A stretch of DNA of 64,000 nt from Bacillota bacterium (GTDB lineage Bacteria > Bacillota > Clostridia > DSM-8532): positions 5,508-69,507 of the forward strand of contig JAEWSN010000170.1 in NCBI GenBank assembly GCA_023459915.1, read 5' to 3'. The notes beneath the pieces were generated by a model. That model worked only from the letters and a program-made list of their open reading frames with translations, ran no database searches and was not told the origin of the DNA. The position numbers and the translations under genes are program-made. Below are positions 14,694 to 31,776 of this stretch, piece by piece; position 1 is the first letter of the stretch, and each line of letters opens with the position of its first letter.

Positions 14694-14761
14694 GACCATC
14701 CGTTGTTATTCGGACTGAGACCATTCATTGTTTTCCGGACTGAGACCATCCGTTGATCCGG
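14687..14761. repeat. 25-nt x3 tandem repeat starting inside the last rpoD codons
   Basis: GGACTGAGACCATCCGTTGTTATTC / GGACTGAGACCATTCATTGTTTTCC / GGACTGAGACCATCCGTTGATCC(G). Unit 1 contains the rpoD stop (TGA 14691-14693). Confidence 0.9.
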
Positions 14762-14771
14762 GACACGTCAA

Positions 14772-14800
14772 CCCCCGCCCCATTAGGGCGGGGGTTTTTT
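14772..14800 (+). terminator. rho-independent terminator of the rpoD operon
   Basis: CCCCCGCCC-CATTA-GGGCGGGGG followed by TTTTTT. Confidence 0.9.
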
Positions 14801-14824
14801 ATGTCAATCAAGCGTTGTGTTGTT

Positions 14825-14853
14825 TTGACGTTCGGTTTCACCGGGCATACGCT
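14825..14853 (+). promoter_or_regulatory. weak candidate promoter of the pilus-like operon
   Basis: TTGACG (14825-14830), 17-nt spacer, then TACGCT (14848-14853). Confidence 0.3.
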
Positions 14854-14889
14854 GTCACCATGGCCTGTGAGGGAAGAAGGGGTGGCGGC

Positions 14890-16011
14890 ATGGCATTGAC
14901 GTTGATGCTGATCGATTCGGATGAGGCGTATCGCAAGAAGCTGCGCGCATGGACGCGGGTGCACCCGGAGCTTGGGATGACCCTTGTGGACAGGGCGGAG
15001 GCGCCGCAGGGCACGAAGGAAGGGGACCGTGCGGCATTGCCCGCGGACACCGTGCTGCTGCTTGGTGTGCGGCACGCGCCGCTTCCGGCCCAATGGCCGC
15101 CAAGCGGGTCGCGGCTGGTGCTGCTCGAGGAGAACGGCACGGTGGCCACGCTTCCCGGATGCGCCGCTTCCGGCGGAGAATGGCCAATTCTCAGAAAGTA
15201 TCAGCCCGCCACCCAGTTTTTCCAGTCACTGCTGCAGGTGGCGGCCGAAAAGGGCTGGCACCTGCCCCATGTCCCCGACGCCGCGCGCTGCCGCATGACG
15301 GTGCTGCTTCATCCGGCGGGAAGCGTCCATCTGGCGCCCGTCCTGCCCGTGCTGGCCGCGCTGTGCGCCCGAAAGGCGGAGACGGCCATCCTCTCGTTGA
15401 ATGCGGCCATGGAGACCGGGTTCTGGTACGCGGGAGACACCGGCGGCGGGCTCACCCGCATGGCCTACGAGGCGCAGCGCGCGCCCCGGATCGGCATGGA
15501 AGCATTGCGCAGGTGCCTGGTCCGGGACGAGGGAACAGGCGTTCACGTCCTTCACTCCGCCGAGCTCCCGGAGGACGCAGCGGCATTGCGGGCGGATACG
15601 GTGGCGGGCACGCTGCAGGCGTGCGGGGAGCTGGGAATGGAAATGCTGCTGGTGGACGGCGGGGACATGCTGTCCGCGCGCAATCTCCAGCTGGCGCTGG
15701 CGGCGGACCAGGTGTTGTTTGTGCTGCCGGCGGATCTGTACGGCGCGCACATGATGGCGCGCGTTGTCCAGCTTGACGGGAGGCTCAGGCGCACGGGATC
15801 CGGCTGCTGGCGGGACAATCAGCCGGTGCGGTGGCTTTTCACGGGAACGGACATGCCGGCCATCCGCTGCGCGCTGCCCGCGACCCATGCGGTCAAACCC
15901 TTGCCGCCCGCATATCCGGACGGACCGGTGTCGGACGGGTGGGAGGTTTCGGACGCGTTTCTGCGAAGCCTGCACGCCTTGGTGCCCTTTTGCGGGAGGT
16001 GTGCGTCATGA
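14890..16011 (+). CDS. TadZ/CpaE-like protein (REC-like N-terminus plus ParA/MinD-like fold) lacking a Walker A motif
   Basis: ATG at 14890 follows GAAGAAGGGG. The N-terminus MALTLMLIDSDEAYRKKLRAWT is receiver-like. The centre has RMTVLLHPAGSVHLAPVLPVLAALCARK where TadZ/MinD proteins carry KGGxGK(T/S)T. Later, LLVDGG...ADQVLFVLPADLYG resembles the Walker B/switch region. The stop overlaps the cpaF start (ATGA). Confidence 0.5.
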   Translation: MALTLMLIDSDEAYRKKLRAWTRVHPELGMTLVDRAEAPQGTKEGDRAALPADTVLLLGVRHAPLPAQWPPSGSRLVLLEENGTVATLPGCAASGGEWPILRKYQPATQFFQSLLQVAAEKGWHLPHVPDAARCRMTVLLHPAGSVHLAPVLPVLAALCARKAETAILSLNAAMETGFWYAGDTGGGLTRMAYEAQRAPRIGMEALRRCLVRDEGTGVHVLHSAELPEDAAALRADTVAGTLQACGELGMEMLLVDGGDMLSARNLQLALAADQVLFVLPADLYGAHMMARVVQLDGRLRRTGSGCWRDNQPVRWLFTGTDMPAIRCALPATHAVKPLPPAYPDGPVSDGWEVSDAFLRSLHALVPFCGRCAS

Positions 16012-17447
16012 TGACGGAACAGGCGTTTCGCGACTGGATACGACAGCTGCGCAAGGCGGCGGCCGGGTTGGCGGCGGCGGCGCAGTGGGAGGAAGACGCA
16101 CCGCCGGCTGCGCGGCAGGGGTTGGCCGGCGAAGCCGCCGGCCTGGATGTGGAAAGCCTGCGGGACACGCGGCTGCGGGAAGACATCCAGGGGCTGATGC
16201 TCGCCCATCCGATGGCATGCGCCGCTTCCGCGGAGGAAAAGCACCAGGCGGTGGAGTCGGTGTTCAACGCCATGCGGCGGATGGACGTGCTCGAACCGCT
16301 GCTGCGCGATCCGGAGACCACCGAGATCATGGTCAACGGGCCGGATCATGTGTTTGTGGAGCGCCACGGCCGGCTTGAGCAGACCACGGTCCGGTTCGAC
16401 AGTCCGGATCGGCTGATGGAACTGATTCAGCATCTGGCGGCACGGGTCAATCGAAACGTCAACGAATCCGAGCCCATTGTGGACGCGCGGCTGGCGGACG
16501 GCTCCCGGCTCAATGCCGTTCTGCCGCCGGTGGCGCTCGACGGGCCGCTGCTGACCATCCGGCGATTCCCGGAGAGGCCGCCGGGCATGGCCGAGCTCAT
16601 TGCGTCCGGCTCGCTGACCGAGGAGGCGGCCAACTATCTTGGCGTTCTGGTGAAGGCGCGGTACAACCTGTTCATCTGCGGCGGCACCGGCAGCGGCAAA
16701 ACCACCTTTCTCAATGTGCTTTCCGGGTTCATTCCGGACACGGAGCGCATTGTGACCCTGGAGGATTCCGCGGAGCTGAAGCTGGCGGGCATCCGGAACC
16801 TGGCCCGGCTCGAAACGCGAAACGCCAACATGGAAGGCCGCGGGGAAATCACGATGCAGCAGCTGATCCGCACATCGCTGCGCATGCGGCCGGATCGCAT
16901 CATCGTGGGGGAGGTGCGCGGCGCGGAGGCATTCGACATGCTGCAGGCCATGAACACGGGGCACGACGGCTCCATGTCGACCGGGCATGCCAATTCTCCG
17001 GCCGACATGCTGTACCGGCTTGAAACCATGGTGTCCATGGCGGCCGCCATTCCGCTCGACGCCATTCGCCGGCAAATTGCGTCGGCGGTGGACATCATCA
17101 TCTTTCTGCAAAGGCTGCGCGACCATTCCCGCCGCGTGGTTGAAATAGCGGAAGTCACCACCTGCGGCGCAGACGGGATCACGCTGGTGCCGCTGTTCCG
17201 GTTTCAGGAGGGTGGGACGGATACGGCGCCGGGGCAACCGGGCACAGAGACAGGCGGGCCGGGTACGGCGGCACATGCGGCTGGCGGACTGGCGTGTGTC
17301 AGGGTTATGGGCGACCTGAAGCGAACCGGGGCAACGCTTGCCCGCGTGGAGAAGCTGAGGCTGCGCGGGCTTGCGCTGCCGGAGACCGAGGTGGCTACGG
17401 GTGCGACTGTCGAACGGACGGCAGCCGTGCGTGTGCCGGTGGCATGA
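16008..17447 (+). CDS. cpaF: CpaF/TadA-type secretion ATPase (VirB11/GspE superfamily)
   Basis: EIMVNGPDHVFVERHGRLE, Walker A GGTGSGKTTFLN, Walker B/Asp box RIVTLEDSAEL, RPDRIIVGEVRG, and His box TGHDGSMSTGHAN. GGGAGG RBS. Confidence 0.9.
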   Translation: MMTEQAFRDWIRQLRKAAAGLAAAAQWEEDAPPAARQGLAGEAAGLDVESLRDTRLREDIQGLMLAHPMACAASAEEKHQAVESVFNAMRRMDVLEPLLRDPETTEIMVNGPDHVFVERHGRLEQTTVRFDSPDRLMELIQHLAARVNRNVNESEPIVDARLADGSRLNAVLPPVALDGPLLTIRRFPERPPGMAELIASGSLTEEAANYLGVLVKARYNLFICGGTGSGKTTFLNVLSGFIPDTERIVTLEDSAELKLAGIRNLARLETRNANMEGRGEITMQQLIRTSLRMRPDRIIVGEVRGAEAFDMLQAMNTGHDGSMSTGHANSPADMLYRLETMVSMAAAIPLDAIRRQIASAVDIIIFLQRLRDHSRRVVEIAEVTTCGADGITLVPLFRFQEGGTDTAPGQPGTETGGPGTAAHAAGGLACVRVMGDLKRTGATLARVEKLRLRGLALPETEVATGATVERTAAVRVPVA

Positions 17448-17459
17448 AGGAGGAAGCGG

Positions 17460-19133
17460 ATGTCATCTTTCAACCTGCCCCACCCATGGCAAGGCACAAG
17501 TGCCGACCCGGCGGCCAGCTACTGGTCGCGCCCGTTGAACCTCACGGAAACCGTGCTGGCGGGATGTGTCGGCATGACGCTGGTGATGTTTGCCGCACAG
17601 GTGTTCTACGCGTCCTGGACGGCCATGCTGCTGTTCGCGCCGTTGGGGTTGCTGGCCATCCCCTGGTGGCGTCAAAAACGCGCGGACAAACGCCGGGAGC
17701 AATTCCTGATGCAATACCAGGACATGCTGTACTACCTGTCGTCCGCCATGTCCGCGGGCAAAACCACGGAATCCGCCTTTGCCGAAGTGTCCAGATATCT
17801 CATGGCGCAATACGGCGGCATGGAGACCGATCTGCTGCTGGAACTGAAGCGGCTTGCCGCCAAACTGGCCATGCGTGAGCCGGTGGAGCGCATTCTCGCG
17901 GACATGGCGGTGCGGACGGGGCTGGAGGATGTCAGGCAGCTGTCGGAGGTCATTGCCATTGGGCGGAGATCCGGCGGAAATCTTGTCGAAATTCTTCAGC
18001 AATCCATTCGGGTGTTGCGGGAAAAGATTGGCATCCGGCGCGAAATGGAAACGGCCTGGGCCTCCAAAAAGCTTGAGCAGCGCATTCTGTGCGTGTCGCC
18101 GGTGGCGCTGATCTTCATGCTCAGGAGCGGAACGGACAGCTTCATGGCCCCCATGTATGAAACCGCCGCCGGACGCCTCATCATGACCCTTGCGCTGCTG
18201 CTCATCGTTGCCGGGTACGCCATCGGCGCGCATATGATGCGGCAACCGGATGCCTGCCTGCGGCAACGGCCGGTGCCGGCTCCTTTGTCCGGGCCGACCG
18301 GGATCACGCCGCGGGAAGTGGGTCGGATGCCCGCCACAGACCCACGGACGGCAGCGGATGTCTCCGGGGTGCTGCGGCACCTGCTGCAATCTGCCGGTCA
18401 TCTGCTGGCCAACCTTCTGCCGGCGCGTGTTCGCGCCTTTGAGCGGCGGCGCCTGATGCCGCGGGTGCTGCTGTTGCGCGGTCCGGCGGACGCGGGTACG
18501 GATTTTGAGCGGCATCTCGCGGACAAATGCCTGCATGCCTGTCTTGGGATGGGGCTGGGCGCCCTGCTGTGTCTGCTTGGACAGGCGCCGGGCTATCTGC
18601 CGCTCGGTCTGCCGGCCGGCGGGGTGCTGCTCTGGTTCCTGTCCGACCGCCAGCTCGAAACGGCTTACAAACAGCGTTGCGAACAGCTGGTGCTGGAGTT
18701 TCCCGGATTTGTCTGCCGGGTGGCGCTGCTCACCGGCGCCGGGCTGCATGTCCGGCAGGCCTTGTGCCGCATCGTTGCCGGCGCTTCCATGGCCCATGCG
18801 GTGCTGAACCGGGAAGTCGCGTCGGTGCTCTCGGAAATTGAGGGTGGACTGCCGGAGGCCCAGGCATGGACCGAGCTGGCGGAACGCTGCCGCATACGCG
18901 AGATCGCCTCGCTGTGCGGGGTGTTCATGCAACATGCCCGGCTGGGGCATGCCGGCCTGGCCGCCGAGCTCCGACAGATGGCATCTGACAGCTGGGACAA
19001 CCGCAAACACGCGGCCCGGCGTCTGGGGGAGGAGGCGTCCTCGAAGCTGATGCTGCCGATGGCCATTCTGTTTGTGGCGGTTTTGATGGTCAGCGTCGCG
19101 CCGGCGTTCCTCTCCATGTCCATGGCATTCTGA
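17460..19133 (+). CDS. fused TadB-TadC platform protein (two T2SSF-like halves in one 557-aa polypeptide)
   Basis: The first half (LSSAMSAGKTTESAF...IAIGRRSGGNLVEIL...) and the second half (FVCRVALLTGAGLHVRQAL...RLGHAGLAAELRQMASD...) each resemble a T2SSF/TadB-C unit flanked by TM segments. GAAGGAGG RBS. Confidence 0.75.
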   Translation: MSSFNLPHPWQGTSADPAASYWSRPLNLTETVLAGCVGMTLVMFAAQVFYASWTAMLLFAPLGLLAIPWWRQKRADKRREQFLMQYQDMLYYLSSAMSAGKTTESAFAEVSRYLMAQYGGMETDLLLELKRLAAKLAMREPVERILADMAVRTGLEDVRQLSEVIAIGRRSGGNLVEILQQSIRVLREKIGIRREMETAWASKKLEQRILCVSPVALIFMLRSGTDSFMAPMYETAAGRLIMTLALLLIVAGYAIGAHMMRQPDACLRQRPVPAPLSGPTGITPREVGRMPATDPRTAADVSGVLRHLLQSAGHLLANLLPARVRAFERRRLMPRVLLLRGPADAGTDFERHLADKCLHACLGMGLGALLCLLGQAPGYLPLGLPAGGVLLWFLSDRQLETAYKQRCEQLVLEFPGFVCRVALLTGAGLHVRQALCRIVAGASMAHAVLNREVASVLSEIEGGLPEAQAWTELAERCRIREIASLCGVFMQHARLGHAGLAAELRQMASDSWDNRKHAARRLGEEASSKLMLPMAILFVAVLMVSVAPAFLSMSMAF

Positions 19134-19199
19134 CCGGATACGGGCATAATTGGTACCGGCCGCTGCATGTCGTGGCCGAAGCGAAGGGGGGAAGGGCAG

Positions 19200-19916
19200 A
19201 TGGACAAGCGCCAGCAGAGACGACGTGGGCAATGCGGCACCGCGGGCTCCGCAACCCTGGAGTATGCGCTGCTGATGCCCCTGATCCTTTTCATTGTGTT
19301 GATGGTGTGTCAGCTGCTGTTGCTGCTGCGCGACATGGCGGTGCTGGAAGCCGCGCTGTGGCGTTCCCTGAACATGGCCGCCGGCAGTTGGCATCGGATG
19401 TCGGCTTCATGCCCCGTTGTCACCGACACGCAGGCAGCGGCGACGACCAGCCCGCGTGACATGTATTGGGAGCTGAAAAGCGTGCTGGGCGCGGATCAAA
19501 CGAAGTGCGACATCCTTGAGGCCGCCACGCACCAGTGGCTGCGTGAAGAACTGGAAACTGGCGGTGGGCACAAGGGAACCGCCATCGAATGCCTTCGGGT
19601 GGATGAACTGGCGGTTCGCGTGGATACGGGGAGGGGACTGCCGTTCGGGGTGATGCACGCGGAGGCGGTTGTGCCGGTGGGTGGTTTTGTTGGCCGGTGG
19701 GCACGGCGACTGTCATCCGGGAAGGGACTGTCGGTGACTGTCGACGCGGAAGTGCTGTTCGCGCAACCCCACGCGTTTGCCCAGGACATGGACTGGGCAC
19801 TGCAACTGCTGGCGGATTCTCCGATGGGCAAGGCGGAGAGCCCCATGACTGAAAAGGGAAAAGACTTCATCGCCACCATTCACGGCGTGCTGTCGGGTTC
19901 AAAACAAGGAGGATGA
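19200..19916 (+). CDS. TadE-like pseudopilin (Flp-type leader G-SATLEY)
   Basis: MDKRQQRRRGQCGTAG/SATLEYALLMPLILFIVLMV has a basic leader, then Gly, Glu at +5 and a hydrophobic helix, as in TadE/Flp-family substrates of TadV. Confidence 0.6.
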   Translation: MDKRQQRRRGQCGTAGSATLEYALLMPLILFIVLMVCQLLLLLRDMAVLEAALWRSLNMAAGSWHRMSASCPVVTDTQAAATTSPRDMYWELKSVLGADQTKCDILEAATHQWLREELETGGGHKGTAIECLRVDELAVRVDTGRGLPFGVMHAEAVVPVGGFVGRWARRLSSGKGLSVTVDAEVLFAQPHAFAQDMDWALQLLADSPMGKAESPMTEKGKDFIATIHGVLSGSKQGG

Positions 19917-19917
19917 C

Positions 19918-22900
19918 ATGGTGAAACGCGGGTTGGAGCCAAGGCGAAAGGAGGCGGCGCATCGTGACGGCATGCGCCATGGGAGCGTCACCATCTTTCT
20001 GTGTGTGCTGCTCTCCATACTTGTGCCCTTGACGCTCATTCTCACGGATTTGGTGCGACTCCGCATCGCCCGGGTGAAGGTGGACAACGCGGTCCGTCTG
20101 GCCGCCGAATCCATTTTGGCGGATTATGAGCGGCCCTTGCGCGACCAATATGGTGTGCTTGGGGTTTCACCCCGGTCAGGATCGGTTGAGGAAGCGGCGC
20201 TGCTGTCCATGCTGCGCGACAATCTGGAGCCGGTTCCGCAAGACGGATACGCCGATCCGTTTGGCCTGCGCGTGCAATCCGGACAGGTGTCGATGGGTGG
20301 TCCCCTGAATGCCCCCGACGCGCTCGCCCCGCAGCTTGCGGAGTACATGCGGTATCGCGCGCCGGTCAGCCTGGCTGCAGGATGGCTGGAAAAGCTGCGC
20401 TCCCTGGCGGGCGCGTCGCGACAGGTGGCATGTGTTGAGGCTGAAATGGCACTGGAGCGCACGCGCGCGTTGGCAAGGGAGAACCTTGTGTACTTGTTTT
20501 TTCTCAAGGAAACGCGGTTGGATCGTTTTGGCCGTGACGCGGCAGGTGATTCATTGGCGGCTTCAACCGAATCCGTGATGAAAAACCAGACGGAACGGGT
20601 GGAACAGGGGGTTTCGGCATATCGGGAAAGTGCCGCGGCGCTGGCGGAGAACCTGCCCCGTTATCGGGCCAAGCAGCAGAGCCTGTCGCTGGCCGCAGCG
20701 TCCGTGTCACATGCGGAGGATGTGCTGTCCCAGGCCAATGCGGTGCTTGCCGAGGCGAAAAGCGCTTGGGAACTGGCCGGCAGCGCGGAGACATCGTCGG
20801 CGGGTTCGGATGGCGCCACCACACCGGCGGATTCAGAGGGATTTACATCTTCGGCGGACTCGGATGGCGCCACCACGTCGGCGGAATCGGATGGCGCCAC
20901 CACACCGGCGGAGTCGGCCGCGGAGGCGGCCGCGCATGCCAAATACCTGGCGGCCATGACGTCGGTTTCCATCGCGGAATCCGCGCTGGCAAGCGAAACG
21001 CGTGCCCATGGGCAGGAACAGGCCGCGTTCTCCGCCTGGTGTGAAACCCAGTGGCAGCCCGTCGCCAATACCGCCAGCCAGGCCCTGCGCCAAATCGGGG
21101 AAGGGTTGGCGGAGCTGCTGGCGGCACACCAGTCGCTGTCGGGCCATCTGTTCCGGCAGGGACTGTATCTTGAAAAAGCATGCTTTCTTGCAACCGGTCT
21201 GACTGGAACGCTGGCGGAGGTGGCAGCGCAGACCGCCGATGCGGCACTGCTTGCCGAAAGTGTTTCCGGGCAGCAGTCCGGCGGCGCGCTCTCGGCGAGT
21301 GCCAGCAAAAAGCCGTCATATCCTGACGAACAGGAGATGGATCGCGCGCGACAGTTTCTCGCAGGGTTCCGGGAGCGGGTGGCGGTGCTGGCACGTGCGT
21401 CGTCGGAGCGCGGGCAAGCGGTGGAGAACGCGCTTGTGTCCATGACACAGATGACAGGCGCGTTTGATGCAATGGCCCGGGACCCGGCAGGACCGGCACG
21501 GGTGCCCGAACTGCCGGAATCTGTTTGCCAGCCCGTCCTTCCCGGAACATCGCTTGGCGCATCCCCGGACCTGAAAGTGGATTTCAGTCAGGCATGGCTG
21601 GCCGAAACGGGACACAAGACCATTGACATGGGGCAGCCGCCATCCGAACAGGAGCGCGCGGCTTATTGGGACTGGTTTGCCGGATGGTCCGGCGAACCGG
21701 TGGATTCAGCGGATGGCGCGCCGGAAACACAGGATGCCAACCGGAAGGAATCGGCGAAAACCCTTCGGGCCATTCGGGAGGCGGCAGGCGTCACCTCGGA
21801 AGGGGTTCGAAAAGGGGAGGAAAACGCCGAGGGAGGTGTCATCCCTGAATCCATCCGGGATGCGCTGCCCAGTGCCATGCTGGCCCGGGCCATGTCCCGG
21901 ACGGACAACCATCCGCTGGCGCAGGCGCGCACGGGCAACCGGCAGCTGGATGAAACCCATGCCAACGATTTCACCCAGGCCATGGGCAGGATGGCGGGGC
22001 TCGCCGGCACCTTTGACCAGTTGCTTTCGCAATCATCGGACGCGCTGCTGCGGGTTTTGTGGGAGGATGCGTACATGCTGGCGGCATTCACCAATGCAAC
22101 CACCCCTGCCGGGGGGATTCCCGGAGACATCGCGTGGGGCCGCAAGCTGGACGGAAATGTCTTCAAAAAGGGAGAAGTGGAGTACATTCTGTTTGGGCAA
22201 ATGGAGGAAGGCAAGAATCTGCTGATCATGAAGGGGGCGCTGTTCGGGACGCGGCTGGCCCTGAACCTGCTGCACATTCACGCGTCCGCGGCAAAGCGCG
22301 CGGCCACGCTCTCCCTCGCGACAACCCTTGCCGGATGGACGGCGTTTGGCATTCCCGCTGTGCAGCACTTTCTGATGCTTGCCTGGGCCGCCGCGGAGTC
22401 CTGCACGGATGTGGATCGGCTCCTCAAGGGAATGCCGGTGCCCGTCATCAAGACAGACGCAAACTGGTTCCTTTCCGTTGGCAGTCTGCGTCAGGAGCTG
22501 GTTCAGAACCTGGTGCTCGACCCGTTGAAGGGCCGTGTGGCAGGCGCCGCCGGCGCGGCAATCGGCAAAGCCGATCAGGCGGTTCGCGAGACAGTGGGGG
22601 GATGGATTGACGCGGCTGTGGATGGCGCGTTCGCGCCATTGGAAATCGAATGCGCGGACTTTGGCTCGGCAATGGCCGATCAGCTTTCATCGGGCACTGC
22701 CGACCTGCCTGCCGCGGTTTCCGGCGCGGTGACGGCCTTTGTCGCGTCCCTGCCCCAATCGGATCCGCAAGCCATGCTGGATCAGGGATTCTCCCAGGCG
22801 CTGGCAGCGTTTGCCGATTCGTTGCGGACCGTGTCCGCCACGTATCTCCAGGAGGCGGGAGTGGCGAAGGTGGTGTCGTTGCGGGAACAAGTCAAGGTCT

Positions 22901-23334
22901 TCATGAAATCGCAGGTGTTTGCCTCCGCATGTTATGCCAATCTGGTGGAATACGCCAAAACGACGGCCATGGGGCTGACGAACCGGGTGTTCGAGGACGT
23001 GTCAAAAGAGGCGGACAAGCTGTTTGGCCCGGCTGTTTCAACAGAAGGCTTCCGGGCCGACATCACCGCGCGCATGGCGACGATGGATTATCAGGAATAT
23101 CTGGCGCTGTTCCTGTTGCTGGTGCCCCCGGAGACCAAGACGGCCAGGGCGGCGGATCTGATGCAGCTCAATCTGCAGCGCGCGCTGCAGGATGCGTCTT
23201 TCCGGATGGCGGATCACTGCACGCAGATCCGGGTGGAGGCGACCGTGGTGATGTCTTTCTGGTTTCTGCCCGATGATTTGGGCGGCACACAGCCGCTGAA
23301 CGTCATCCAGGCAGCCTGGGAAACGGGGTATTGA
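19918..23334 (+). CDS. 1138-aa protein with a TadG/TadE-like N-terminal anchor and otherwise unassigned
   Basis: AAGGAGGA RBS. The N-terminus RHGSVTIFLCVLLSILVPLTLILTDLVRLRIARVKVDNAVRLAAE resembles the Tad (TadE/G) N-terminal domain. The rest is Ala/Leu/Glu/Gln-rich with no motif I can place. The ORF sits tightly between neighbours (2-nt gaps). Confidence 0.6.
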   Translation: MVKRGLEPRRKEAAHRDGMRHGSVTIFLCVLLSILVPLTLILTDLVRLRIARVKVDNAVRLAAESILADYERPLRDQYGVLGVSPRSGSVEEAALLSMLRDNLEPVPQDGYADPFGLRVQSGQVSMGGPLNAPDALAPQLAEYMRYRAPVSLAAGWLEKLRSLAGASRQVACVEAEMALERTRALARENLVYLFFLKETRLDRFGRDAAGDSLAASTESVMKNQTERVEQGVSAYRESAAALAENLPRYRAKQQSLSLAAASVSHAEDVLSQANAVLAEAKSAWELAGSAETSSAGSDGATTPADSEGFTSSADSDGATTSAESDGATTPAESAAEAAAHAKYLAAMTSVSIAESALASETRAHGQEQAAFSAWCETQWQPVANTASQALRQIGEGLAELLAAHQSLSGHLFRQGLYLEKACFLATGLTGTLAEVAAQTADAALLAESVSGQQSGGALSASASKKPSYPDEQEMDRARQFLAGFRERVAVLARASSERGQAVENALVSMTQMTGAFDAMARDPAGPARVPELPESVCQPVLPGTSLGASPDLKVDFSQAWLAETGHKTIDMGQPPSEQERAAYWDWFAGWSGEPVDSADGAPETQDANRKESAKTLRAIREAAGVTSEGVRKGEENAEGGVIPESIRDALPSAMLARAMSRTDNHPLAQARTGNRQLDETHANDFTQAMGRMAGLAGTFDQLLSQSSDALLRVLWEDAYMLAAFTNATTPAGGIPGDIAWGRKLDGNVFKKGEVEYILFGQMEEGKNLLIMKGALFGTRLALNLLHIHASAAKRAATLSLATTLAGWTAFGIPAVQHFLMLAWAAAESCTDVDRLLKGMPVPVIKTDANWFLSVGSLRQELVQNLVLDPLKGRVAGAAGAAIGKADQAVRETVGGWIDAAVDGAFAPLEIECADFGSAMADQLSSGTADLPAAVSGAVTAFVASLPQSDPQAMLDQGFSQALAAFADSLRTVSATYLQEAGVAKVVSLREQVKVFMKSQVFASACYANLVEYAKTTAMGLTNRVFEDVSKEADKLFGPAVSTEGFRADITARMATMDYQEYLALFLLLVPPETKTARAADLMQLNLQRALQDASFRMADHCTQIRVEATVVMSFWFLPDDLGGTQPLNVIQAAWETGY
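20800..20934 (+). repeat. in-frame 27-nt x5 tandem repeat inside the 1138-aa gene
   Basis: The units encode AGSDGATTP / ADSEGFTSS / ADSDGATTS / AESDGATTP / AESAAEAAA. They are codon-aligned. Confidence 0.9.
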
Positions 23335-23335
23335 C

Positions 23336-24718
23336 ATGGGACACACATCGCCGGAGAGCCACCGTTTGGTGACGCGGACAGACAGGCGTTTCAGAGGATC
23401 CCACAGAGAGCCGCGTTGCAGGGAGTCGCGTTGCAGAGAGCCGCGTTTAGGTGGCTGGTACAAAGGACGCAGGACGGCAGGGCAGCTGACCATCGAAGCG
23501 GCGGTGACGCTGCCCGCCTTCCTATTTGCCCTGCTCGCCCTGGCCTCCCTGGTCAGCTATCCGATGACCTGTTTGCGGATTGAGCGGGCGATGACAGATG
23601 CGGCGCAGCTTGTCAGCTTGTCCGGACATGCGCTTGACATGACAGGATGCGGAGCCATGGGCACCGCATGGGAGAACGCCGCGCACGGGGGCACGGTCAT
23701 CGGGGAGCCGCAGCTCACGGAGGTGGAGACGCTTCTGGAACAACTGGGCATGACAACGGATCAGAACAATCCTGTGCAACAGTTGCTTGGGCTGGTTCGC
23801 CAATTCAGCCGATCCTTCGCTTCAGAAGCGGGAGAACTGGTTGTAGAAGCGGTGCAGGCAGGGGTTGCGCAGCTTGTCGGCGAACTGGTGACCTGGCGGG
23901 TGGGTGCGCTGGCAGACGGAACCCGTGATGGGTATCATGCGCGGGATCCTTGGGCGGCACTTGGGGTGGTGGGCGGTGCCGACGGCGTCGATTTCAGCCG
24001 GACCACCTTGCAGCTGTCGTCGGGAGATTTGATGGTTGTGGCACGGTACCGGCTCCGACCGGTCAGGGGCTTCGGGCTGTTGCCGGCCATCCCCTGCCAG
24101 AGCCGTGTCCGTGTCAGGATCTGGGGGGCAGGGATGGGCCCGGTGCTGCGCGAACCGTTGTTCTTCCCGACGGGCGACGCACAGGCGGCGCAGGCGGCAG
24201 AGAGCCTGTGGAACCATGGCAGTGGCGCGACTCCCGCTTGGAATCGCGGGTTGCTGATTGAGCAGCGGGAAATCGATAAAATCGCGCGGGGAACAAGGTT
24301 TGGGGGAGACTGGTTTGTCGGCTCGGACACCATGCAGGCGGGATACGACGCATTGTCGGGCTCCGTCAACTCAAACCAGGTGCAGGTTTGGCAGGTCATG
24401 AGCCTGAATCCGATGCTCCCTTCCTATGACGGCCAGCCATCCGAAATTCGGCGCGCTATCCGCAGGCAGCTCGCGGCCATGCCCCCGCGTGGCGGCTTGG
24501 TGTCACATCCGGGTGACGGCACCCAACGAACGGTGCTTGTCAGACGAATTGTGCTCGTGGTGCCACAGAACACGCCCGAAACGATGGACGCGTTGATCGC
24601 GGACATGGCGATGGGACTGGCGGCGGAAGGTGCCGTGATTGAATTGGTCAGAGGGTACGGAAATTATGGAGATGATGGGGTTCCTGCCAGGATTGACACC
24701 GGTGCCTCGGGTGGATGA
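23336..24718 (+). CDS. 460-aa TadE-like protein (leader ...TAG-QLTIEAAVTLPAFLFALLAL)
   Basis: G-x4-E motif followed by a hydrophobic helix after a basic N-terminal stretch that includes a 15-nt x3 repeat (REPRCRESRCREPR). The start lies 2 nt after the preceding stop. Confidence 0.55.
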   Translation: MGHTSPESHRLVTRTDRRFRGSHREPRCRESRCREPRLGGWYKGRRTAGQLTIEAAVTLPAFLFALLALASLVSYPMTCLRIERAMTDAAQLVSLSGHALDMTGCGAMGTAWENAAHGGTVIGEPQLTEVETLLEQLGMTTDQNNPVQQLLGLVRQFSRSFASEAGELVVEAVQAGVAQLVGELVTWRVGALADGTRDGYHARDPWAALGVVGGADGVDFSRTTLQLSSGDLMVVARYRLRPVRGFGLLPAIPCQSRVRVRIWGAGMGPVLREPLFFPTGDAQAAQAAESLWNHGSGATPAWNRGLLIEQREIDKIARGTRFGGDWFVGSDTMQAGYDALSGSVNSNQVQVWQVMSLNPMLPSYDGQPSEIRRAIRRQLAAMPPRGGLVSHPGDGTQRTVLVRRIVLVVPQNTPETMDALIADMAMGLAAEGAVIELVRGYGNYGDDGVPARIDTGASGG

Positions 24719-24745
24719 AAAATCAGGGAATGGACGGAGGGTTTG

Positions 24746-26365
24746 ATGATGTCGGAGCAACCGAATGTGATGACGGCGCTGGGGCTGGAGCGGCCTGTTT
24801 TTTCGCAAATGGCCGGACAAGCCGTTTTTCAGGTGGATGTGGCGCAAACGCAGGGCATCCTTTCCTACCAGTGGCACATGCTTCAGGAGAACAGGCCCGC
24901 GGGGCTGTTGCCGCTGTCTTGTTATGAAGAGGCCGGCCAGGTGCGACTGTGCTGGCGTGTCACAGCCCTCCAGCCGCTGGCGGTGATGTTCGCGGGCCGG
25001 AGCTGGTCGGTCGGGGAGGTGATTGGGCTGATTCGGCAGCTGTATCAAATCCTTGTGCAGATGGATGTGTTGCTGCTCGACGCGGAACGGCTGCTGCTCG
25101 ACAACCGCTACATTCTGGTGGATCCCGGGCGCATGGCGCTTCATCTGGCGTACTGCCCCCTGATGGAAGCCGTGGAAAACCCCGACGCAATCCGACAGCT
25201 GTTGTTGCGCTGGCTCACCGCCGATTGTCAGCTGAACGGAAATGACAGGATGGACAGATTGTCCGCGCTGCTCCTGATGCTGCGCGACCCTTCCTTTCAC
25301 TGGCGCCGGCTGTCGGAGTTGTTTGGTGGTATCGGGTCGGGGGATGGGGGCAATGCGTCCTGTGATTTGGCGGACACATACGATGTTGCGGGACTGCAGA
25401 CGATATCATCTGCCACACCACCGGCCTCCTCACAAACCGCATCAGACACAGGATCACATGCTGGAACCACTATCCGCAATGCCTATGGGGTCAACTCCGG
25501 GGACAAGACGCCGGGAAAGCCCATTGCTTCCTTTACCCGTAAGGGATCCCGCACGGAAGAGGGGGCGGAACCCGGATGGCGGCCTGATTTGTGGCGCATC
25601 ATTCCTGTGCAGCTGATACTGGTTGTCAGCGTGGTGGCAGTGTACTCCGGCGGTATCCTGACGGCATACGGGCCGGACGGTACCATGGCGCGCGCGGGCA
25701 TGGCGCTGCTTGCCGTGGCACTGGAGTTCTGGGCGTTTGCCACGGGGAAGCAGCGTCCCAAGCCTGCCCCTGTGGGTCCCGTTTCCGCGGCACCCCGCCC
25801 AAGCAATGGGCTTGCAGCCGCTCAGGCACCTCCCTGCGGAACCGGTGTGACCAGAGCGGCCGCAACGCCGTCATTTCCGTCCCATGAACCGGACAACACG
25901 GCATGGCACACGGAATTCCCGTCCCATGAACCGGACAACACGGCATGGCACACAGAATTCCCGTCGCGCGAACCGGATGTCATATCGCAGGCGGCTCCGA
26001 TAATATCGCAACAGGAAGCGTGGATGGAAGAAACCTGCCTGCTTGCCGGAAAAGCCGGTCCCTGTCTGCGGTATGAACCGCAAGACGCGCCGCCGCAATG
26101 CATCACGGTTTCAAAAACGCCTTTCCTGATTGGACGCATGCGCGATCAGGTGGATGGCTGGCTGGCGCATCCCACAGTGGGAAAGCTTCATGCGGAAATC
26201 CGGCTTGAGAAAGGGATGCACACCCTGGTGGACCTGAATTCCAGAAACGGCACCCGGGTCAACGGACGGCCACTCACGCCGTATGAACCCTGCGCGCTCC
26301 ACCCCAATGATCAGATTCTGATTTCGGGGGAAACACTGGTTTTTCTGGAACAGGCGCAATCATGA
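24746..26365 (+). CDS. membrane protein with a C-terminal FHA domain
   Basis: ATG at 24746 follows GGACGGAGGG. There are central TM segments (WRIIPVQLILVVSVVAVYSGGIL..., MALLAVALEFWAFA). The C-terminus FLIGRMRDQVDGWLAHPTVGKLHAEIRLEKGMHTLVDLNSRNGTRVNGRPL...ILISGETLVF is a canonical FHA signature. Confidence 0.8.
   Translation: MMSEQPNVMTALGLERPVFSQMAGQAVFQVDVAQTQGILSYQWHMLQENRPAGLLPLSCYEEAGQVRLCWRVTALQPLAVMFAGRSWSVGEVIGLIRQLYQILVQMDVLLLDAERLLLDNRYILVDPGRMALHLAYCPLMEAVENPDAIRQLLLRWLTADCQLNGNDRMDRLSALLLMLRDPSFHWRRLSELFGGIGSGDGGNASCDLADTYDVAGLQTISSATPPASSQTASDTGSHAGTTIRNAYGVNSGDKTPGKPIASFTRKGSRTEEGAEPGWRPDLWRIIPVQLILVVSVVAVYSGGILTAYGPDGTMARAGMALLAVALEFWAFATGKQRPKPAPVGPVSAAPRPSNGLAAAQAPPCGTGVTRAAATPSFPSHEPDNTAWHTEFPSHEPDNTAWHTEFPSREPDVISQAAPIISQQEAWMEETCLLAGKAGPCLRYEPQDAPPQCITVSKTPFLIGRMRDQVDGWLAHPTVGKLHAEIRLEKGMHTLVDLNSRNGTRVNGRPLTPYEPCALHPNDQILISGETLVFLEQAQS
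25874..25978 (+). repeat. in-frame 42-nt x2.5 tandem repeat in the FHA protein linker
   Basis: FPSHEPDNTAWHTE / FPSHEPDNTAWHTE / FPSREPD. The two full units differ at only 2 of 42 nt. Confidence 0.9.
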
Positions 26366-26431
26366 TATAATGAGCCATGGAAGCGTCGCCGGGCGGGGCT
26401 TCCCAATTGTGCACGGATGGAGGGCGTATCG

Positions 26432-27538
26432 ATGGACGGGCGTTCTGACACGGAGCATCCAGAACAGAAGCAAGCGCAAGCGAAAAGAAACGGCCCCAAA
26501 GCCAGCCGGCCGGAGCTGCTGGAACTGTCGCTTTTCTGCCATCAGGTGTCCCTGGTTCTGAAATCCGGCATTCATCCCATCGAGGGCATTCCGCTGATTG
26601 CCTCGGAAGTGGCCAATCCGGCATTGAAGCAGGCGCTTGAGGATGCGGGAGAAGCCGTTGTCAAGGGCACACCGCTGCATCAGGCGCTGTCACAGACAGA
26701 TGTTTTTCCGCCTTATCTGGTTGCGATGACCCGTCTGGGAGAGTCCTCCGGGATGCTCGAACAGGTCATGGAACGCTTGAGCGCGTTCTACGAAAAGGAA
26801 GATCGCCTGCGCAAGCGCATCCGCAGCGCGCTGACGTATCCGCTGCTGCTTCTGGCGCTGATGCTGGGCGTCATCATCCTGCTCGTTTCACAGGTGCTGC
26901 CAATGTTTGCGGCCATTCTTTCCTCACTTGGCGGAGAATTGCCGGGGGCCACCCGCGCGATGCTGGGTGCCGGCACCTTCTTTGGGCAGTGGGGCTGGGT
27001 GCTGCTGCTGGCGCTGGTCGTGGTTGCCGCACTGATGTATTTCCGGACAAGAACGGAAAAGGGGCGGTTCGCCTGGGATGCGCGGAAACTGAAACTCCCG
27101 CTGGTTGGCAAGCTGTTTGTCAAGTCGGCGGCCGCCCGGTTCAGCGCGGGGCTTTCCGTTGTGCTGCAAAGCGGCATGGAATTGCAGGAAGGGCTCTCGC
27201 AGGTGGAAGCACTCGCAGACAACAGGAAGGTCCGGGCCATGATTGCCGAGGTGACCCGACAGGTCGGAGCCGGAGCGGATTTGGGAACGGCGCTCGGCAC
27301 GGTTGCCCTTTTCCCGCCGCTGTTCACGCGGATGATGCAGATTGGCCAGCGGACAGGCGAACTCGATCGCATGATGGAGAAAATCGCCTCCCTGTATGAA
27401 ACGGAAGTGGATCAATCCGCACAGCAACTGTCCAACACCATCGAACCGGTGCTGATTCTCATCCTGTCCGTTGTCATCGGTGTGGTGCTGCTGGCCGTCA
27501 TGCTGCCGCTGATCAACATCATGGGAACCATCGGCTGA
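26432..27538 (+). CDS. PilC/GspF-type type IV pilus platform protein
   Basis: Two T2SSF repeats are present (LVLKSGIHPIEGI...LGESSGMLEQVMERLSAFYE and VVLQSGMELQEGL...IGQRTGELDRMMEKIASLYE) with three TM regions. ATG at 26432 follows GGAGGG. The track ORF starts at 26417. Confidence 0.85.
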   Translation: MDGRSDTEHPEQKQAQAKRNGPKASRPELLELSLFCHQVSLVLKSGIHPIEGIPLIASEVANPALKQALEDAGEAVVKGTPLHQALSQTDVFPPYLVAMTRLGESSGMLEQVMERLSAFYEKEDRLRKRIRSALTYPLLLLALMLGVIILLVSQVLPMFAAILSSLGGELPGATRAMLGAGTFFGQWGWVLLLALVVVAALMYFRTRTEKGRFAWDARKLKLPLVGKLFVKSAAARFSAGLSVVLQSGMELQEGLSQVEALADNRKVRAMIAEVTRQVGAGADLGTALGTVALFPPLFTRMMQIGQRTGELDRMMEKIASLYETEVDQSAQQLSNTIEPVLILILSVVIGVVLLAVMLPLINIMGTIG

Positions 27539-27540
27539 CC

Positions 27541-27568
27541 CTGCATCCGCGAGGCAGCACGGATGCAG
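27541..27568 (+). other. intercistronic 9-bp stem-loop after the PilC-type platform gene
   Basis: CTGCATCCG-N10-CGGATGCAG begins 3 nt after the stop of the platform gene. No U-run follows. Confidence 0.6.
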
Positions 27569-27619
27569 TGACCTGATGACAAATCAAGTCTTGGATGGCC
27601 TGAAGGGAGGGGCGCCGGC

Positions 27620-27928
27620 ATGAAACGCGCAGACACAAATCTGTCAACCCAGCTTGTCTTGTTGGCAGTGGTGCTGGTGCTGCTGCTGGCGGCTGTTTTT
27701 GGCATGCGCAGCTTCTGGCGCGATGCCAACCCGGACAGGACGGAGGCGGTTGTGCAGGCCATCCGCAAGGCGTCTGTGCAATGCTACGCGCTCGAGGGTA
27801 GCTATCCGCCGGATGTCGCATATCTGGCGGAGCATTATGGGCTCGCGATCGACATGGAAAAATACGCGGTTCGATACGAGGTGTTCGCCTCAAACATCAT
27901 GCCGGAAATCGAGGTGCATGAGCGATGA
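27620..27928 (+). CDS. small N-terminally anchored protein (102 aa), unassigned
   Basis: GGGAGGGG RBS. MKRADTNLSTQLVLLAVVLVLLLAAVFG is a signal anchor with no G-x4-E motif. The stop overlaps the next start (ATGA). Confidence 0.55.
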   Translation: MKRADTNLSTQLVLLAVVLVLLLAAVFGMRSFWRDANPDRTEAVVQAIRKASVQCYALEGSYPPDVAYLAEHYGLAIDMEKYAVRYEVFASNIMPEIEVHER

Positions 27929-28446
27929 CGCGGTTGGGACGCCGAACGGCGGGAAAAACACAGACGGAAGTGCTGGCGGTGTTTTTGCTGCTCCTGTTGA
28001 TGGGGGTCAGCGTGTTCACCCTGGCTTCCTCCGGCGTTGCGGCTTATCAGCGTTCGGAGCGTGCGCGTTCGGTGCAGGGAGAGCTGCGTGTGGCCATGTC
28101 CTTCCTGCAGATGAAGGTGCGGCAGTCCGATCGCGCCGGCGGCATTTATCTGGCGCCGAATCCCGTCAATGGAACCACCGCGCTGGTGCTGGCCGAAGAC
28201 ATTGAAGGGGTATCGTATGAAACCTGGATTTATCATGACGAAGGCCATGTGAAGGAAGCGCTCATCCTGGCGGGAGAACCGTTCGACAACACGATGGCCT
28301 TTGATGTGGCACAGGTCGGCGAACTGACGCTGAACACCAACGCGCTGGGCACCGGACTGCTGATTCGCGCGGCGTCAGAGGATGAAAATGGACGGACATA
28401 CCAGGCGCAAACCAGCCTGGCGATTCGCAGCGGGGGTGTCCGATGA
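27925..28446 (+). CDS. pseudopilin-like protein (leader MTRLGRRTAG-KTQTEVLAVFLLLLLMG)
   Basis: Basic leader, Gly, Glu at +5 and a hydrophobic helix. ATGA overlaps on both sides. Confidence 0.6.
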   Translation: MTRLGRRTAGKTQTEVLAVFLLLLLMGVSVFTLASSGVAAYQRSERARSVQGELRVAMSFLQMKVRQSDRAGGIYLAPNPVNGTTALVLAEDIEGVSYETWIYHDEGHVKEALILAGEPFDNTMAFDVAQVGELTLNTNALGTGLLIRAASEDENGRTYQAQTSLAIRSGGVR

Positions 28447-31757: not shown

Positions 31758-31776
31758 CGCTTGGACCTGCCTTGAA

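What the first reader, a model, noticed from the sequence alone, without database searches (positions are those of the whole stretch)
19918..23334. 1138-aa giant with only a TadG-type anchor recognisable
It is the largest gene of the operon. The first 60 aa or so (basic stretch, GSVTIFLCVLLSILVPLTLIL, then LVRLRIARVKVDNAVRLAAE) look like the Tad/TadG N-terminal domain. The remaining 1050 aa or so are Ala/Leu/Glu/Gln-rich with no motif I can assign. There is one hypervariable-looking 27-nt x5 repeat (AxSDGATTP) and a late hydrophobic stretch (LATTLAGWTAFGIPAVQHFLMLAWAAA). There are also conserved-looking motifs (GEVEYILFG, MDYQEYLALFLLLVPPE). It could be a tip adhesin, a ruler or scaffold, or a secreted substrate.
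Basis: partly seen in the sequence, partly recalled or inferred. Interest (0 to 1): 0.6.

Follow-up and report, generated by a model that had tools for sequence, protein, structure and literature searches.

The report
Giant tip-type minor pilin (DUF5702)
The 1138-aa gene is real and belongs to a widespread uncharacterised family (Pfam DUF5702); it is most likely the apical TadG/CpaL-type minor pilin of a Tad-like machine in Clostridia whose operon encodes no Flp pilin.

Summary
The ORF at 19918-23334 (+), 1138 aa, is real and is not a fusion artefact. All 24 same-family genomes searched carry an open frame with the same split DUF5702 match; frames not cut by a contig end are 940-1162 aa.

Three modules are conserved:
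- an N-terminal TadG-type anchor with invariant Gly-1 and Phe+5, so no Glu+5;
- a helical DUF5702 core;
- a C-terminal module ending in an invariant Tyr.

The spacers between them vary in length. In the AF2 model they form two long helical hairpins. The 27-nt repeat sits in the disordered loop between the two long helices of hairpin 1. Near-identical strains carry one or two fewer units.

Both flanking genes carry G/xxxxE prepilin motifs in 20/20 loci. This matches the published PilI/PilJ + PilK (CpaJ/CpaK + CpaL) tip-complex logic, including C-terminal beta-strands that must pair with the single N-domain strand in the model.

The gene always sits next to TadB and TadC, usually CpaF, and a DUF6382-FHA protein. 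The operon has no Flp pilin. No fold relative was found in the PDB. I read it as an apical minor pilin (confidence 0.6). Earlier scan notes exist only for this same window.

The parts
19918..23334 (+). Giant DUF5702 gene, 1138 aa plus stop
   Evidence: Open frame. Shine-Dalgarno AAGGAGG at 19906-19912. Pfam PF18960 at E 7.3e-42. Open frames with the same split match in 24/24 same-family genomes.
19918..19983 (+). Basic class-III-like leader, M1-G22, ending at the invariant Gly
   Evidence: G22 is invariant in 19- and 26-sequence alignments. Cleavage by a prepilin peptidase is inferred and was not tested.
19984..20121 (+). Pilin-type alpha1 helix (aa 23-68) with the hydrophobic anchor at 24-42. 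Position +5 is an invariant Phe (F27), not Glu.
   Evidence: Hydropathy peak 2.85. AF2 helix 22-68. F27 invariant. PF13400 Tad hit at aa 22-59 and in 15/22 homologues.
20269..20304 (+). The only beta-strand of the N-terminal module (aa 118-129)
   Evidence: AF2/DSSP gives an unbroken E at 118-129. The only other strands in the model long enough to pair with it are 1101-1111 and 1129-1137.
20365..21480 (+). Variable helical hairpin 1 (aa 150-521), with helices 150-199, 213-288, 333-449 and 471-521. The longest helix, 117 aa, is about 17 nm.
   Evidence: AF2 secondary structure. The spacer from the N module to the core ranges from 81 to 742 aa in 151 homologues.
20797..20917 (+). In-frame 27-nt tandem repeat (9-aa S/D/G/A/T-rich units) in the disordered loop between the two long helices of hairpin 1. 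Copy number varies between strains.
   Evidence: Tandem Repeats Finder. AF2 pLDDT below 50 at aa 290-333. A 99%-identical relative lacks exactly 54 nt and a 94%-identical relative lacks 27 nt.
22006..22494 (+). DUF5702 core (aa 697-859), including the GEVEYILFG motif
   Evidence: Pfam profile positions 53-201. Invariant E753, E755, Y756, G760, N767, R779, D831, G838. AF2 pLDDT mostly 72-90, one block at 61.
22288..22425 (+). Conserved hydrophobic helix-turn-helix (aa 791-836; LATTLAGWTAFGIPAVQHFLMLAWAAAES)
   Evidence: AF2 helices 791-804 and 811-836. A801, G806, W807, P813, E827 and D831 are invariant in 26 sequences. Hydropathy is below the transmembrane threshold.
22477..23025 (+). Helical hairpin 2 (aa 854-1036), an insertion inside the DUF5702 domain
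   Evidence: It lies between Pfam profile positions 201 and 218. AF2 helices 854-925, 929-944, 950-1001 and 1004-1036. The spacer is bimodal: at most 50 aa in 51 homologues and 150-300 aa in 100.
23077..23331 (+). C-terminal module (aa 1054-1138): the MDYQEYLALFLLL helix, then strands 1101-1111 and 1129-1137, ending in the invariant Tyr-COOH
   Evidence: Pfam profile positions 218-274. Y1058, L1066 and Y1138 are invariant. The protein ends exactly at this module in 103/151 homologues, and the last two residues are GY in 99. The strands' pLDDT falls from 69-91 to 46-54 when the N-terminal 671 aa are left out.
19167..19916 (+). Upstream TadE-like minor pilin (249 aa) with the prepilin motif G/SATLEY
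   Evidence: Pfam TadE at E 7e-5. Sequence. The same G/xxxxE motif in the upstream gene of 19 of the 20 related loci checked.
23336..24718 (+). Downstream 460-aa pilin-like protein with G/QLTIEAA (Glu+5)
   Evidence: Sequence. A G/xxxxE motif in the downstream gene of 20/20 related loci. No Pfam hit.
14728..19133 (+). Motor and platform: a TadZ/CpaE-like gene (14728-16011), the CpaF ATPase (within 15831-17447) and a fused TadB-TadC (17460-19133)
   Evidence: Pfam T2SSE at E 7e-60 and T2SSF. TIGR03819 TadA family at 1.5e-93; the match to the CpaE-like model is weak. Synteny in relatives.
24743..26365 (+). DUF6382 + FHA protein, conserved downstream partner
   Evidence: Pfam DUF6382 at 3e-19 and FHA at 3.8e-14. 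Found downstream of DUF5702 in relatives at every taxonomic depth sampled.

Best explanation
The gene encodes the apical (PilK/GspK/TadG/CpaL-class) minor pilin of a Tad-like type IV filament machine of Clostridia whose operon has no Flp pilin.

Proposed working:
1. The protein enters the membrane N-in/C-out through its pilin-type alpha1 segment.
2. The 22-aa basic leader is probably removed after the invariant Gly22 by the genome's A24 prepilin peptidase. This step is inferred.
3. Position +5 is an invariant Phe, not Glu. It therefore needs no subunit above it and sits at the very top of the filament.
4. Its last two beta-strands, ending in the invariant Tyr-COOH, fold back onto the single strand of the N-terminal module and complete a small pilin-like sheet. 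This is shown only in the AF2 model.
5. The helical DUF5702 core packs with these parts as a conserved body. That packing is inferred.
6. Two helical hairpins of variable length project from the body. The longer one is about 17 nm, and the copy-number-variable S/D/G/T-rich repeat lies in its connecting loop.
7. With the two flanking Glu+5 minor pilins it would form the initiation and tip complex on the TadB/TadC platform, driven by CpaF. The DUF6382-FHA protein probably regulates this.

What lies beneath the tip is unknown. It could be a polymer of the TadE-like protein, Flp from the second locus, or only a short pseudopilus that pushes this protein through the cell wall.
For: The gene:
- It is real and conserved: 24/24 same-family genomes have an open frame with the same split DUF5702 match, 940-1162 aa where not cut by a contig end. 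There are 3826 clusters at 50% identity with E<=1e-3.

The N-terminus:
- PF13400 (TadE/G-like) hits 15/22 homologues.
- G22 and F27 are invariant. The G...F(+5) pattern also holds in 5 of 6 phylum-level distant members.

The flanking genes:
- The downstream gene carries G/xxxxE in 20/20 loci and the upstream gene in 19 of 20.
- Published model: PilK homologues invariably lack Glu+5 and are apical. TadG/CpaL supplies a C-terminal beta-strand to its own N-terminal pilin-like domain, and its middle ~470 aa are dispensable (PMC13533445). TadE/F/G homologues form heterotrimeric tips with the large TadG as backbone (PMC12075869).

The AF2 model (pLDDT 74):
- It has a 47-aa alpha1 helix and one unbroken N-domain strand at 118-129. 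The only other strands long enough to partner it are 1101-1111 and 1129-1137.
- Confidence in those strands falls to 46-54 when the N-terminal part is removed.

Family-wide architecture:
- The N, core and C modules co-occur in 151/155 homologues, with spacers of variable length.
- The chain ends exactly at the C module in 103/151, and the last residues are GY in 99.

Context:
- TadB and TadC are adjacent in every locus with enough flank. CpaF is adjacent in most and is present elsewhere in the genome where it is not.
Against: - The window's own N-terminus is below the PF13400 cut-off, 18.2 against 22.3 bits.
- The operon has no major Flp pilin and no prepilin peptidase. Only 8/24 same-family genomes have a detectable Flp anywhere, so a filament for this tip to cap has not been shown.
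- The strand pairing is deduced from the DSSP string of one medium-confidence model. I could not inspect coordinates, and no multimer model was possible.
- The fragment model used a different, smaller alignment, so its pLDDT drop is only indirect evidence.
- The strongly conserved polar and hydrophobic core (E753, E755, Y756, N767, R779, D831 and the hydrophobic hairpin) is not explained by a purely structural tip role.
- There is no vWA or other adhesin domain.
Confidence: 0.6

Rival explanations
1. It is a static envelope component and not a filament subunit. The N-terminal segment would be an uncleaved signal anchor. The long coiled-coil hairpins would span the thick monoderm cell wall as a scaffold, ruler or conduit for the Tad-like machine. 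This would stand in for the RcpC/secretin-type parts that monoderms lack.
For: - There is no Flp pilin in the operon, and no Flp is detectable in 16/24 same-family genomes that all carry the gene.
- The helices of 76-117 aa are roughly 11-17 nm long, on the scale of a Gram-positive wall.
- The window's own N-terminus is sub-threshold for Tad.
- The hairpin lengths vary widely between lineages.
Against: - Invariant Gly-1 and a pilin-type alpha1 would not be needed for a plain anchor.
- The gene is always sandwiched between two Glu+5 prepilin-like genes.
- The conserved C-terminal strand and terminal Tyr match the published tip-complex licensing logic.
Confidence: 0.2
2. It is a tip-displayed membrane-active effector. 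The conserved hydrophobic helix-turn-helix at the end of long helical bundles would insert into a target membrane on contact, as in ClyA/AhlB/MakA-type alpha-pore-formers. The machine would then be a contact-dependent weapon or docking device, as in the Myxococcus Kil system.
For: - The hydrophobic hairpin at aa 791-836 is highly conserved, with invariant A801, G806, W807, P813, E827 and D831 in 26 sequences.
- The architecture is all-helical and elongated.
- The non-significant Foldseek hits include AhlB, MakA and ClyA.
- Tad-like Kil pili kill on contact and are rich in FHA proteins (PMC8460266; PMC12075869).
Against: - The Foldseek matches are not significant (E 0.4-4, TM below 0.2) and come mixed with ABC exporters and SMC arms, that is, generic long helices.
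- The hydrophobic hairpin may simply be the buried core of the domain.
- No immunity or toxin genes were recognised among the operon products scanned.
Confidence: 0.07
3. It is an assembly or frameshift artefact that fuses several genes, or a secreted substrate with no role in the machine. I reject this reading.
For: The genome is a fragmented MAG of 272 contigs, 84.7% complete. The middle of the protein is low in complexity.
Against: - Open frames with the same split match are found in 24/24 same-family genomes, including two single-contig genomes, with no internal stops.
- Two independent metagenome assemblies give 94-99% identical full-length proteins.
- The N, core and C modules co-occur in 151/155 homologues.
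- GC3 is 72%, in frame throughout.
- The pilin-type anchor argues against a free secreted substrate.
Confidence: 0.02

Closest known systems
CpaL / TadG (Caulobacter crescentus CpaL; TadG of Aggregatibacter and Pseudomonas Tad loci)
   Same: - A large minor-pilin-like protein encoded with two smaller minor pilins in a CpaF/TadB/TadC locus.
- A TadE/G-type N-terminal hydrophobic helix with no Glu+5.
- A big, variable middle region.
- An extreme C-terminal beta-strand that returns to the N-terminal pilin-like domain (PMC13533445; here).
   Different: - About twice the size of CpaL (~600 aa).
- The middle is all-helical, with two long hairpins and the DUF5702 core, and has no detectable similarity to any solved structure.
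- No vWA or adhesin domain was detected.
- The host is a monoderm.
- The operon has no Flp pilin, secretin, RcpC or prepilin peptidase.
KilN (TadG-like backbone of the Myxococcus xanthus KilLMN tip complexes)
   Same: - A three-gene set of TadE/TadF/TadG-like minor pilins.
[quoted passage not shown]
- The system is associated with FHA-domain proteins (PMC8460266).
   Different: - No sequence relationship beyond the anchor was tested or found.
- Kil has a defined major pilin (KilP) and a secretin.
- KilN's extra domain contains a large beta-scaffold, whereas this protein is almost entirely helical.
GspK / PilK (apical minor pseudopilin of type II secretion systems and type IVa pili)
   Same: - Lacks Glu+5.
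- Caps a trimer with two Glu+5 partners.
- The C-terminal beta-strand completes its own sheet, with a large alpha-domain inserted between sheet and strand (PMC13533445).
   Different: - A different filament subclass.
- There is no detectable sequence or fold match.
- The insertion here is about 970 aa, against about 180 aa in GspK.
Pfam DUF5702 (PF18960)
   Same: Member by the curated threshold, 143.7 bits against 26.
   Different: - The canonical domain is contiguous, at profile positions 5-275 in proteins of 476-561 aa.
- Here it is split by a ~195-aa helical hairpin and preceded by a ~500-aa hairpin.
- The family has no described function, and no paper in the library mentions it.

Membership tests
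Pfam DUF5702 (PF18960) | Whole-protein score above the curated gathering cut-off (26 bits) | tested here: met
   143.7 bits, E 7.3e-42, in two stretches: aa 697-859 and aa ~1054-1110.
TadG/CpaL-class apical minor pilin | TadE/G-type N-terminal hydrophobic domain (Pfam PF13400 Tad) | tested here: inconclusive
   The window protein scores 18.2 bits against a cut-off of 22.3, E 0.003. Of 22 homologues' N-termini, 15 match, best E 4.8e-6.
TadG/CpaL-class apical minor pilin | Gly at -1 of the class III leader and no Glu at +5 (the PilK/GspK hallmark) | tested here: met
   G22 and F27 are invariant in 19- and 26-sequence alignments. The pattern holds in 5 of 6 phylum-level distant members.
TadG/CpaL-class apical minor pilin | Encoded with two smaller minor pilins that keep Glu+5 (PilI/PilJ, CpaJ/CpaK, TadE/TadF equivalents) | tested here: met
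   Upstream G/SATLEY and downstream G/QLTIEA in the window. The motif is in the downstream gene of 20/20 related loci and the upstream gene of 19 of 20.
TadG/CpaL-class apical minor pilin | The extreme C-terminal beta-strand adds to the beta-sheet of its own N-terminal pilin-like domain | tested here: met
   Met in the model only. In the AF2 DSSP string the unbroken strand 118-129 can pair only with 1101-1111 and 1129-1137. The C-terminal strands lose confidence without the N-terminal part. The C-terminus is conserved and terminal in 103/151 homologues. Coordinates could not be inspected.
TadG/CpaL-class apical minor pilin | Processing by the prepilin peptidase, and location at the filament tip | not testable with these tools
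   An A24 peptidase exists elsewhere in the genome, at C242:1466-1846. No biochemical data exist.
Canonical Tad/Flp (type IVc) pilus locus | CpaF/TadA ATPase plus TadB and TadC platform proteins | tested here: met
   T2SSE at E 7e-60, TIGR03819 at 1.5e-93, and T2SSF in two halves. Conserved synteny.
Canonical Tad/Flp (type IVc) pilus locus | Flp major pilin and TadV prepilin peptidase encoded in the locus | tested here: not met
   The only Flp (PF04964) hit over the Pfam cut-off in the genome is on contig C30, inside a second, canonical Tad locus. The A24 peptidase is on C242. Only 8/24 same-family genomes have a detectable Flp.
ClyA/AhlB/MakA-type alpha-pore-forming toxins | Significant fold similarity to the helical tail and hydrophobic head architecture | tested here: not met
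   Foldseek best E is 0.25-0.4 and TM is below 0.2. These hits rank alongside ABC exporters and SMC arms.

The most novel reading that the evidence does not exclude
The DUF5702 locus is not an adhesive pilus. It is a Tad-derived piston without Flp that pushes a ~17-nm helical "spear" through the Gram-positive wall. The conserved hydrophobic helix-turn-helix and the invariant acidic/aromatic core of that spear would engage or insert into a neighbouring cell's envelope. This would be a monoderm, contact-dependent cell-cell interaction device, analogous in use to the Myxococcus Kil system but with a new effector fold, gated by phosphothreonine signalling through the DUF6382-FHA partner.
Probability: 0.07. 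Interest if true: 0.85.

Novelty: new variant of a known kind. Interest (0 to 1): 0.5.

Why it matters
DUF5702 is a large family with no assigned function: 3826 clusters at 50% identity. It was found in all 24 sampled genomes of this Clostridia family. No paper in the searched library mentions it.

Placing it as the PilK/CpaL-class apical subunit would do three things:
- It gives the family a testable role.
- It extends the recently proposed beta-strand-addition licensing rule for type IV filaments to monoderm Tad-like machines.
- It defines a subtype made of CpaF, TadB, TadC, three pilin-like proteins and DUF6382-FHA, with no Flp pilin in the operon. What filament this subtype builds, if any, is open.

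The strain-variable repeat in the hairpin loop points to a surface-exposed site under diversifying pressure.

Tried and rejected
Searches that found nothing:
- NCBIfam and PHROGs scans of the giant gave no hits.
- PDB sequence searches gave nothing significant, with the single protein or with profiles of the N-terminal and C-terminal halves.
- Foldseek against the PDB, with the full model and with a 672-1138 fragment model, gave no match better than E 0.25, only generic long-helix proteins.

Tools that worked poorly or not at all:
- The three word-indexed homologue searches returned only 3-6 proteins each, because low-complexity words swamped the candidates. The exhaustive representative search was needed instead.
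With closer alignments it gave only unnamed "Clostridia/Bacillota bacterium" MAGs and bioreactor metagenome contigs, so the organism could not be named more precisely.
- A mutual-information covariation test for contacts between the N strand and the C strands was dominated by indel and phylogenetic artefacts. I discarded it.

Ideas considered and dropped:
- M19 as the true start. Its Shine-Dalgarno spacing is 17 nt, against 5 nt for M1.
- A link between the invariant C-terminal Tyr and the downstream RimK ligases. The ligases co-occur only in close relatives.
- A lytic-transglycosylase reading of the AAAES motif. No HMM or fold search supports it.

Full report
**1. The observation**

The + strand frame 19918-23334 is open for 1138 codons. 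It is preceded by AAGGAGG five bases upstream of the ATG, directly after the stop of the upstream gene. Other basic facts:
- GC3 is 72%.
- There is one strong hydrophobic segment, aa 24-42.
- Tandem Repeats Finder reports a 27-nt unit, 4.5 copies, at 20797-20917. It is in frame and encodes SAGSDGATT-like units.

The statement that nothing but the anchor is recognisable does not hold. Pfam DUF5702 (PF18960) matches at E 7.3e-42. Scanning sub-fragments shows that the match is split. Profile positions 53-201 fall on aa 697-859 and positions 218-274 on aa ~1054-1110. About 195 aa are therefore inserted inside the domain. The first 200 aa give only a sub-threshold hit to PF13400, "Tad, TadE/G-like" (18 bits; cut-off 22.3).

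**2. The gene is real and conserved**

- The genome is a 272-contig MAG, 84.7% complete, with one DUF5702 gene.
- All 24 other genomes of the same family have an open frame with the same split match and no internal stops. Frames not cut by a contig end are 940-1162 aa. Two of these genomes are single-contig.
- In an even sample of the phylum, only 9 of 294 high-quality genomes have the family.
- An exhaustive HMMER scan of 1.84 billion representatives found 3826 clusters at E<=1e-3 and 1614 at E<=1e-10, mostly 750-1250 aa long.
- Two independent metagenome assemblies encode 99%- and 94%-identical full-length proteins.

A fusion artefact is excluded.

**3. Architecture**

Alignments of 19 and 26 homologues show three conserved modules separated by variable regions.

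| Module | Residues | Conserved features |
|---|---|---|
| N | ~20-170 | RGSxTVF..., DLxR, YxRPLxEQYG, FMKYRAP; invariant G22, F27, Y146 |
| Core | ~700-860 | LYxNEYIxSAFKN, KGEVEYILFG, the hydrophobic LATxxAGWTxFGVPVVQxFLxxxWAAAES; invariant E753, E755, Y756, G760, N767, R779, D831, G838 |
| C | ~1052-1138 | YxDYLRLxLL, ADLIQLN; two terminal strands ending in the invariant Tyr |

HMMs of the three modules find all three in 151 of 155 homologues. In that set:
- The spacer from N to core is 81-742 aa, median 420.
- The spacer from core to C is bimodal: at most 50 aa in 51 proteins and 150-300 aa in 100.
- The chain ends exactly at the C module in 103 of 151.
- The last two residues are GY in 99.

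The AF2 model (26-sequence alignment; pLDDT 74.3, pTM 0.55) gives the following, in order along the chain:
- a 47-residue alpha1 helix (22-68);
- one unbroken strand (118-129);
- helices 150-199 and 213-288;
- a disordered segment, 290-333, which is exactly the repeat;
- a 117-residue helix (333-449) and helix 471-521;
- a well-predicted helical core (684-836);
- a second set of long helices (854-925, 929-944, 950-1001, 1004-1036);
- helices 1058-1090;
- strands 1101-1111 and 1129-1137.

I read the two variable spacers as antiparallel helical hairpins that leave and return to a conserved body. The repeat lies in the loop at the far end of the longer hairpin, whose 117-aa helix is about 17 nm long. 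This reading is an inference from secondary structure. I could not see coordinates.

**4. Why an apical minor pilin**

- *The N-terminus.* Fifteen of 22 homologues' N-termini match PF13400, best E 4.8e-6.
- *Gly-1 and Phe+5.* The Gly before the hydrophobic helix and the Phe at +5 are invariant. The same pattern appears in 5 of 6 phylum-level distant members.
- *The flanking genes.* The gene upstream (249 aa; Pfam TadE) reads G/SATLEY. The gene downstream (460 aa) reads G/QLTIEA. In 20 related loci the downstream gene always has a G/xxxxE motif, and the upstream gene has one in 19. The result is a trio of class-III-leader proteins, two with Glu+5 and one without.
- *Published models.* PMC13533445 reports that PilK homologues invariably lack Glu+5 and are the most apical subunit. 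It also reports that TadG/CpaL acts like GspK by giving its extreme C-terminal beta-strand to the sheet of its own N-terminal pilin-like domain, and that the ~470-aa middle of CpaL is dispensable. PMC12075869 shows TadE/F/G-like trimers ("Tips") with the large TadG-like protein as backbone, carrying a domain of unknown fold.
- *The model agrees.* Strand 118-129 is unbroken in DSSP, so it cannot pair with itself. The only other strands long enough to pair with it are 1101-1111 and 1129-1137. The C-terminal strands therefore return to the N module.
- *The fragment control.* When aa 672-1138 are modelled alone, the pLDDT of those strands falls from 69-91 to 46-54. This is indirect, because the alignment also differed.

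**5. Context**

Thirty-two related loci with flanks of 3-10 kb (29 metagenome contigs and 3 MAG contigs) were compared with the operon:
- All but one short, uninformative contig carry tadB/tadC next to the giant.
- Wherever the contig extends far enough, they show the order cpaF, tadB/tadC, (TadE-like), DUF5702, 460-aa homologue, DUF6382/FHA.

Six phylum-level distant loci show the same order. They include short DUF5702 proteins of 476-561 aa with a contiguous domain.

In the 16 loci from the relatives survey, the giant, tadB/tadC and the downstream partners are present wherever the contig allows. Three genomes from two genera have no cpaF beside tadB. Those genomes, and two more from the same genera, each carry a 60-65% identical cpaF elsewhere.

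TadB and TadC are separate genes in most relatives. They are fused in the window, in its 94%-identical relative and in one other MAG.

The operon has no Flp pilin and no prepilin peptidase:
- The only Flp gene over the Pfam cut-off in the genome lies in a second, canonical Tad locus on contig C30. That locus has Flp (G/QGMVEY), TadE, an RcpC-sized ORF, a receiver-domain TadZ-like ORF, CpaF, TadB and TadC. The assignments are by position and motif only.
- The A24 peptidase lies on C242.
- Only 8 of 24 same-family genomes have a detectable Flp, while all 24 have DUF5702.

Imam et al. already noted Gram-positive tad operons with TadE-like proteins but no Flp (PMC3244431). DUF6382+FHA proteins are also components (TseJ/TsfJ) of type VII secretion variants in Bacillota (bioRxiv 10.1101/2024.01.30.577966). 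That fits a regulatory adaptor role.

**6. The repeat**

The 99%-identical relative lacks exactly 54 nt, two units. The 94%-identical relative lacks 27 nt, one unit. The flanks are otherwise collinear. Copy number therefore varies between near-identical strains. The position in the disordered loop between the two long helices fits an exposed, fast-changing site.

**7. What stays unknown**

- No solved structure resembles the protein, by sequence or by fold.
- The function of the conserved polar cluster and of the hydrophobic helix-turn-helix in the core is unexplained.
- It is not shown whether a filament exists under this tip, or what it is made of.
- Leader cleavage, tip location and adhesion are all inferred.

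**8. Verdict**

- The best explanation is a PilK/CpaL-class apical minor pilin built on the DUF5702 body (confidence 0.6).
- The main rival is a static wall-spanning scaffold (0.2).
- Novelty: a new variant of a known kind.
- Interest: 0.5.

Noticed in passing
window 17460-19133 (+): TadB and TadC are fused into one 557-aa protein here. They are also fused in the 94%-identical relative (L074) and in one other MAG (L033/L035). In all other relatives examined, including a same-genus complete genome, they are separate genes.
   Followed up: partly
window 35079-36206 (-): An orphan 375-aa ORF has an N-terminal PF13400 Tad (TadE/G-like) domain above the Pfam cut-off (27 bits, E 5.6e-6). It lies on the opposite strand, outside the operon, between an FGGY sugar kinase and a SpoIID gene. 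It may be a further TadG-like minor pilin.
   Followed up: partly
own genome, contig C30:~5100-11750 (-): A second, canonical Tad locus: Flp pilin (84 aa, G/QGMVEY), TadE-like protein (158 aa), a 281-aa RcpC/CpaB-sized ORF, a receiver-domain TadZ-like ORF, CpaF (49% identical to the window's), TadB and TadC. The organism therefore has two distinct Tad-type machines. Assignments are by position and motif only.
   Followed up: partly
window 24743-26365 (+): This protein has the DUF6382 + FHA architecture described for TseJ/TsfJ of type VII secretion variants T7SSe/f in Bacillota. It is a conserved partner of DUF5702 loci at every taxonomic depth sampled. This suggests a shared phosphothreonine-dependent regulatory adaptor for unrelated envelope machines.
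   Followed up: partly
L017, L029, L030 (genomes G015, G009, G016): In three genomes from two genera of the same family, cpaF is not next to tadB/tadC/DUF5702. A 60-65% identical copy lies elsewhere; in the complete genome G015 it is 73 kb away.
   Followed up: yes
window 26417-32758 (+): The downstream PilC / four pilin-like genes / PilT-like ATPase / two RimK ligases block follows the DUF5702 locus only in the closest relatives (L015/L031 and L033). It does not follow it in other genera of the family, so it is probably a separate module that became adjacent recently.
   Followed up: partly
L025 (G037:C46:12169-12312): In one distant relative a weak Flp-like small ORF (E 0.005) sits between tadC and the DUF5702 gene. 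Some members of this locus type may therefore keep a small pilin.
   Followed up: no
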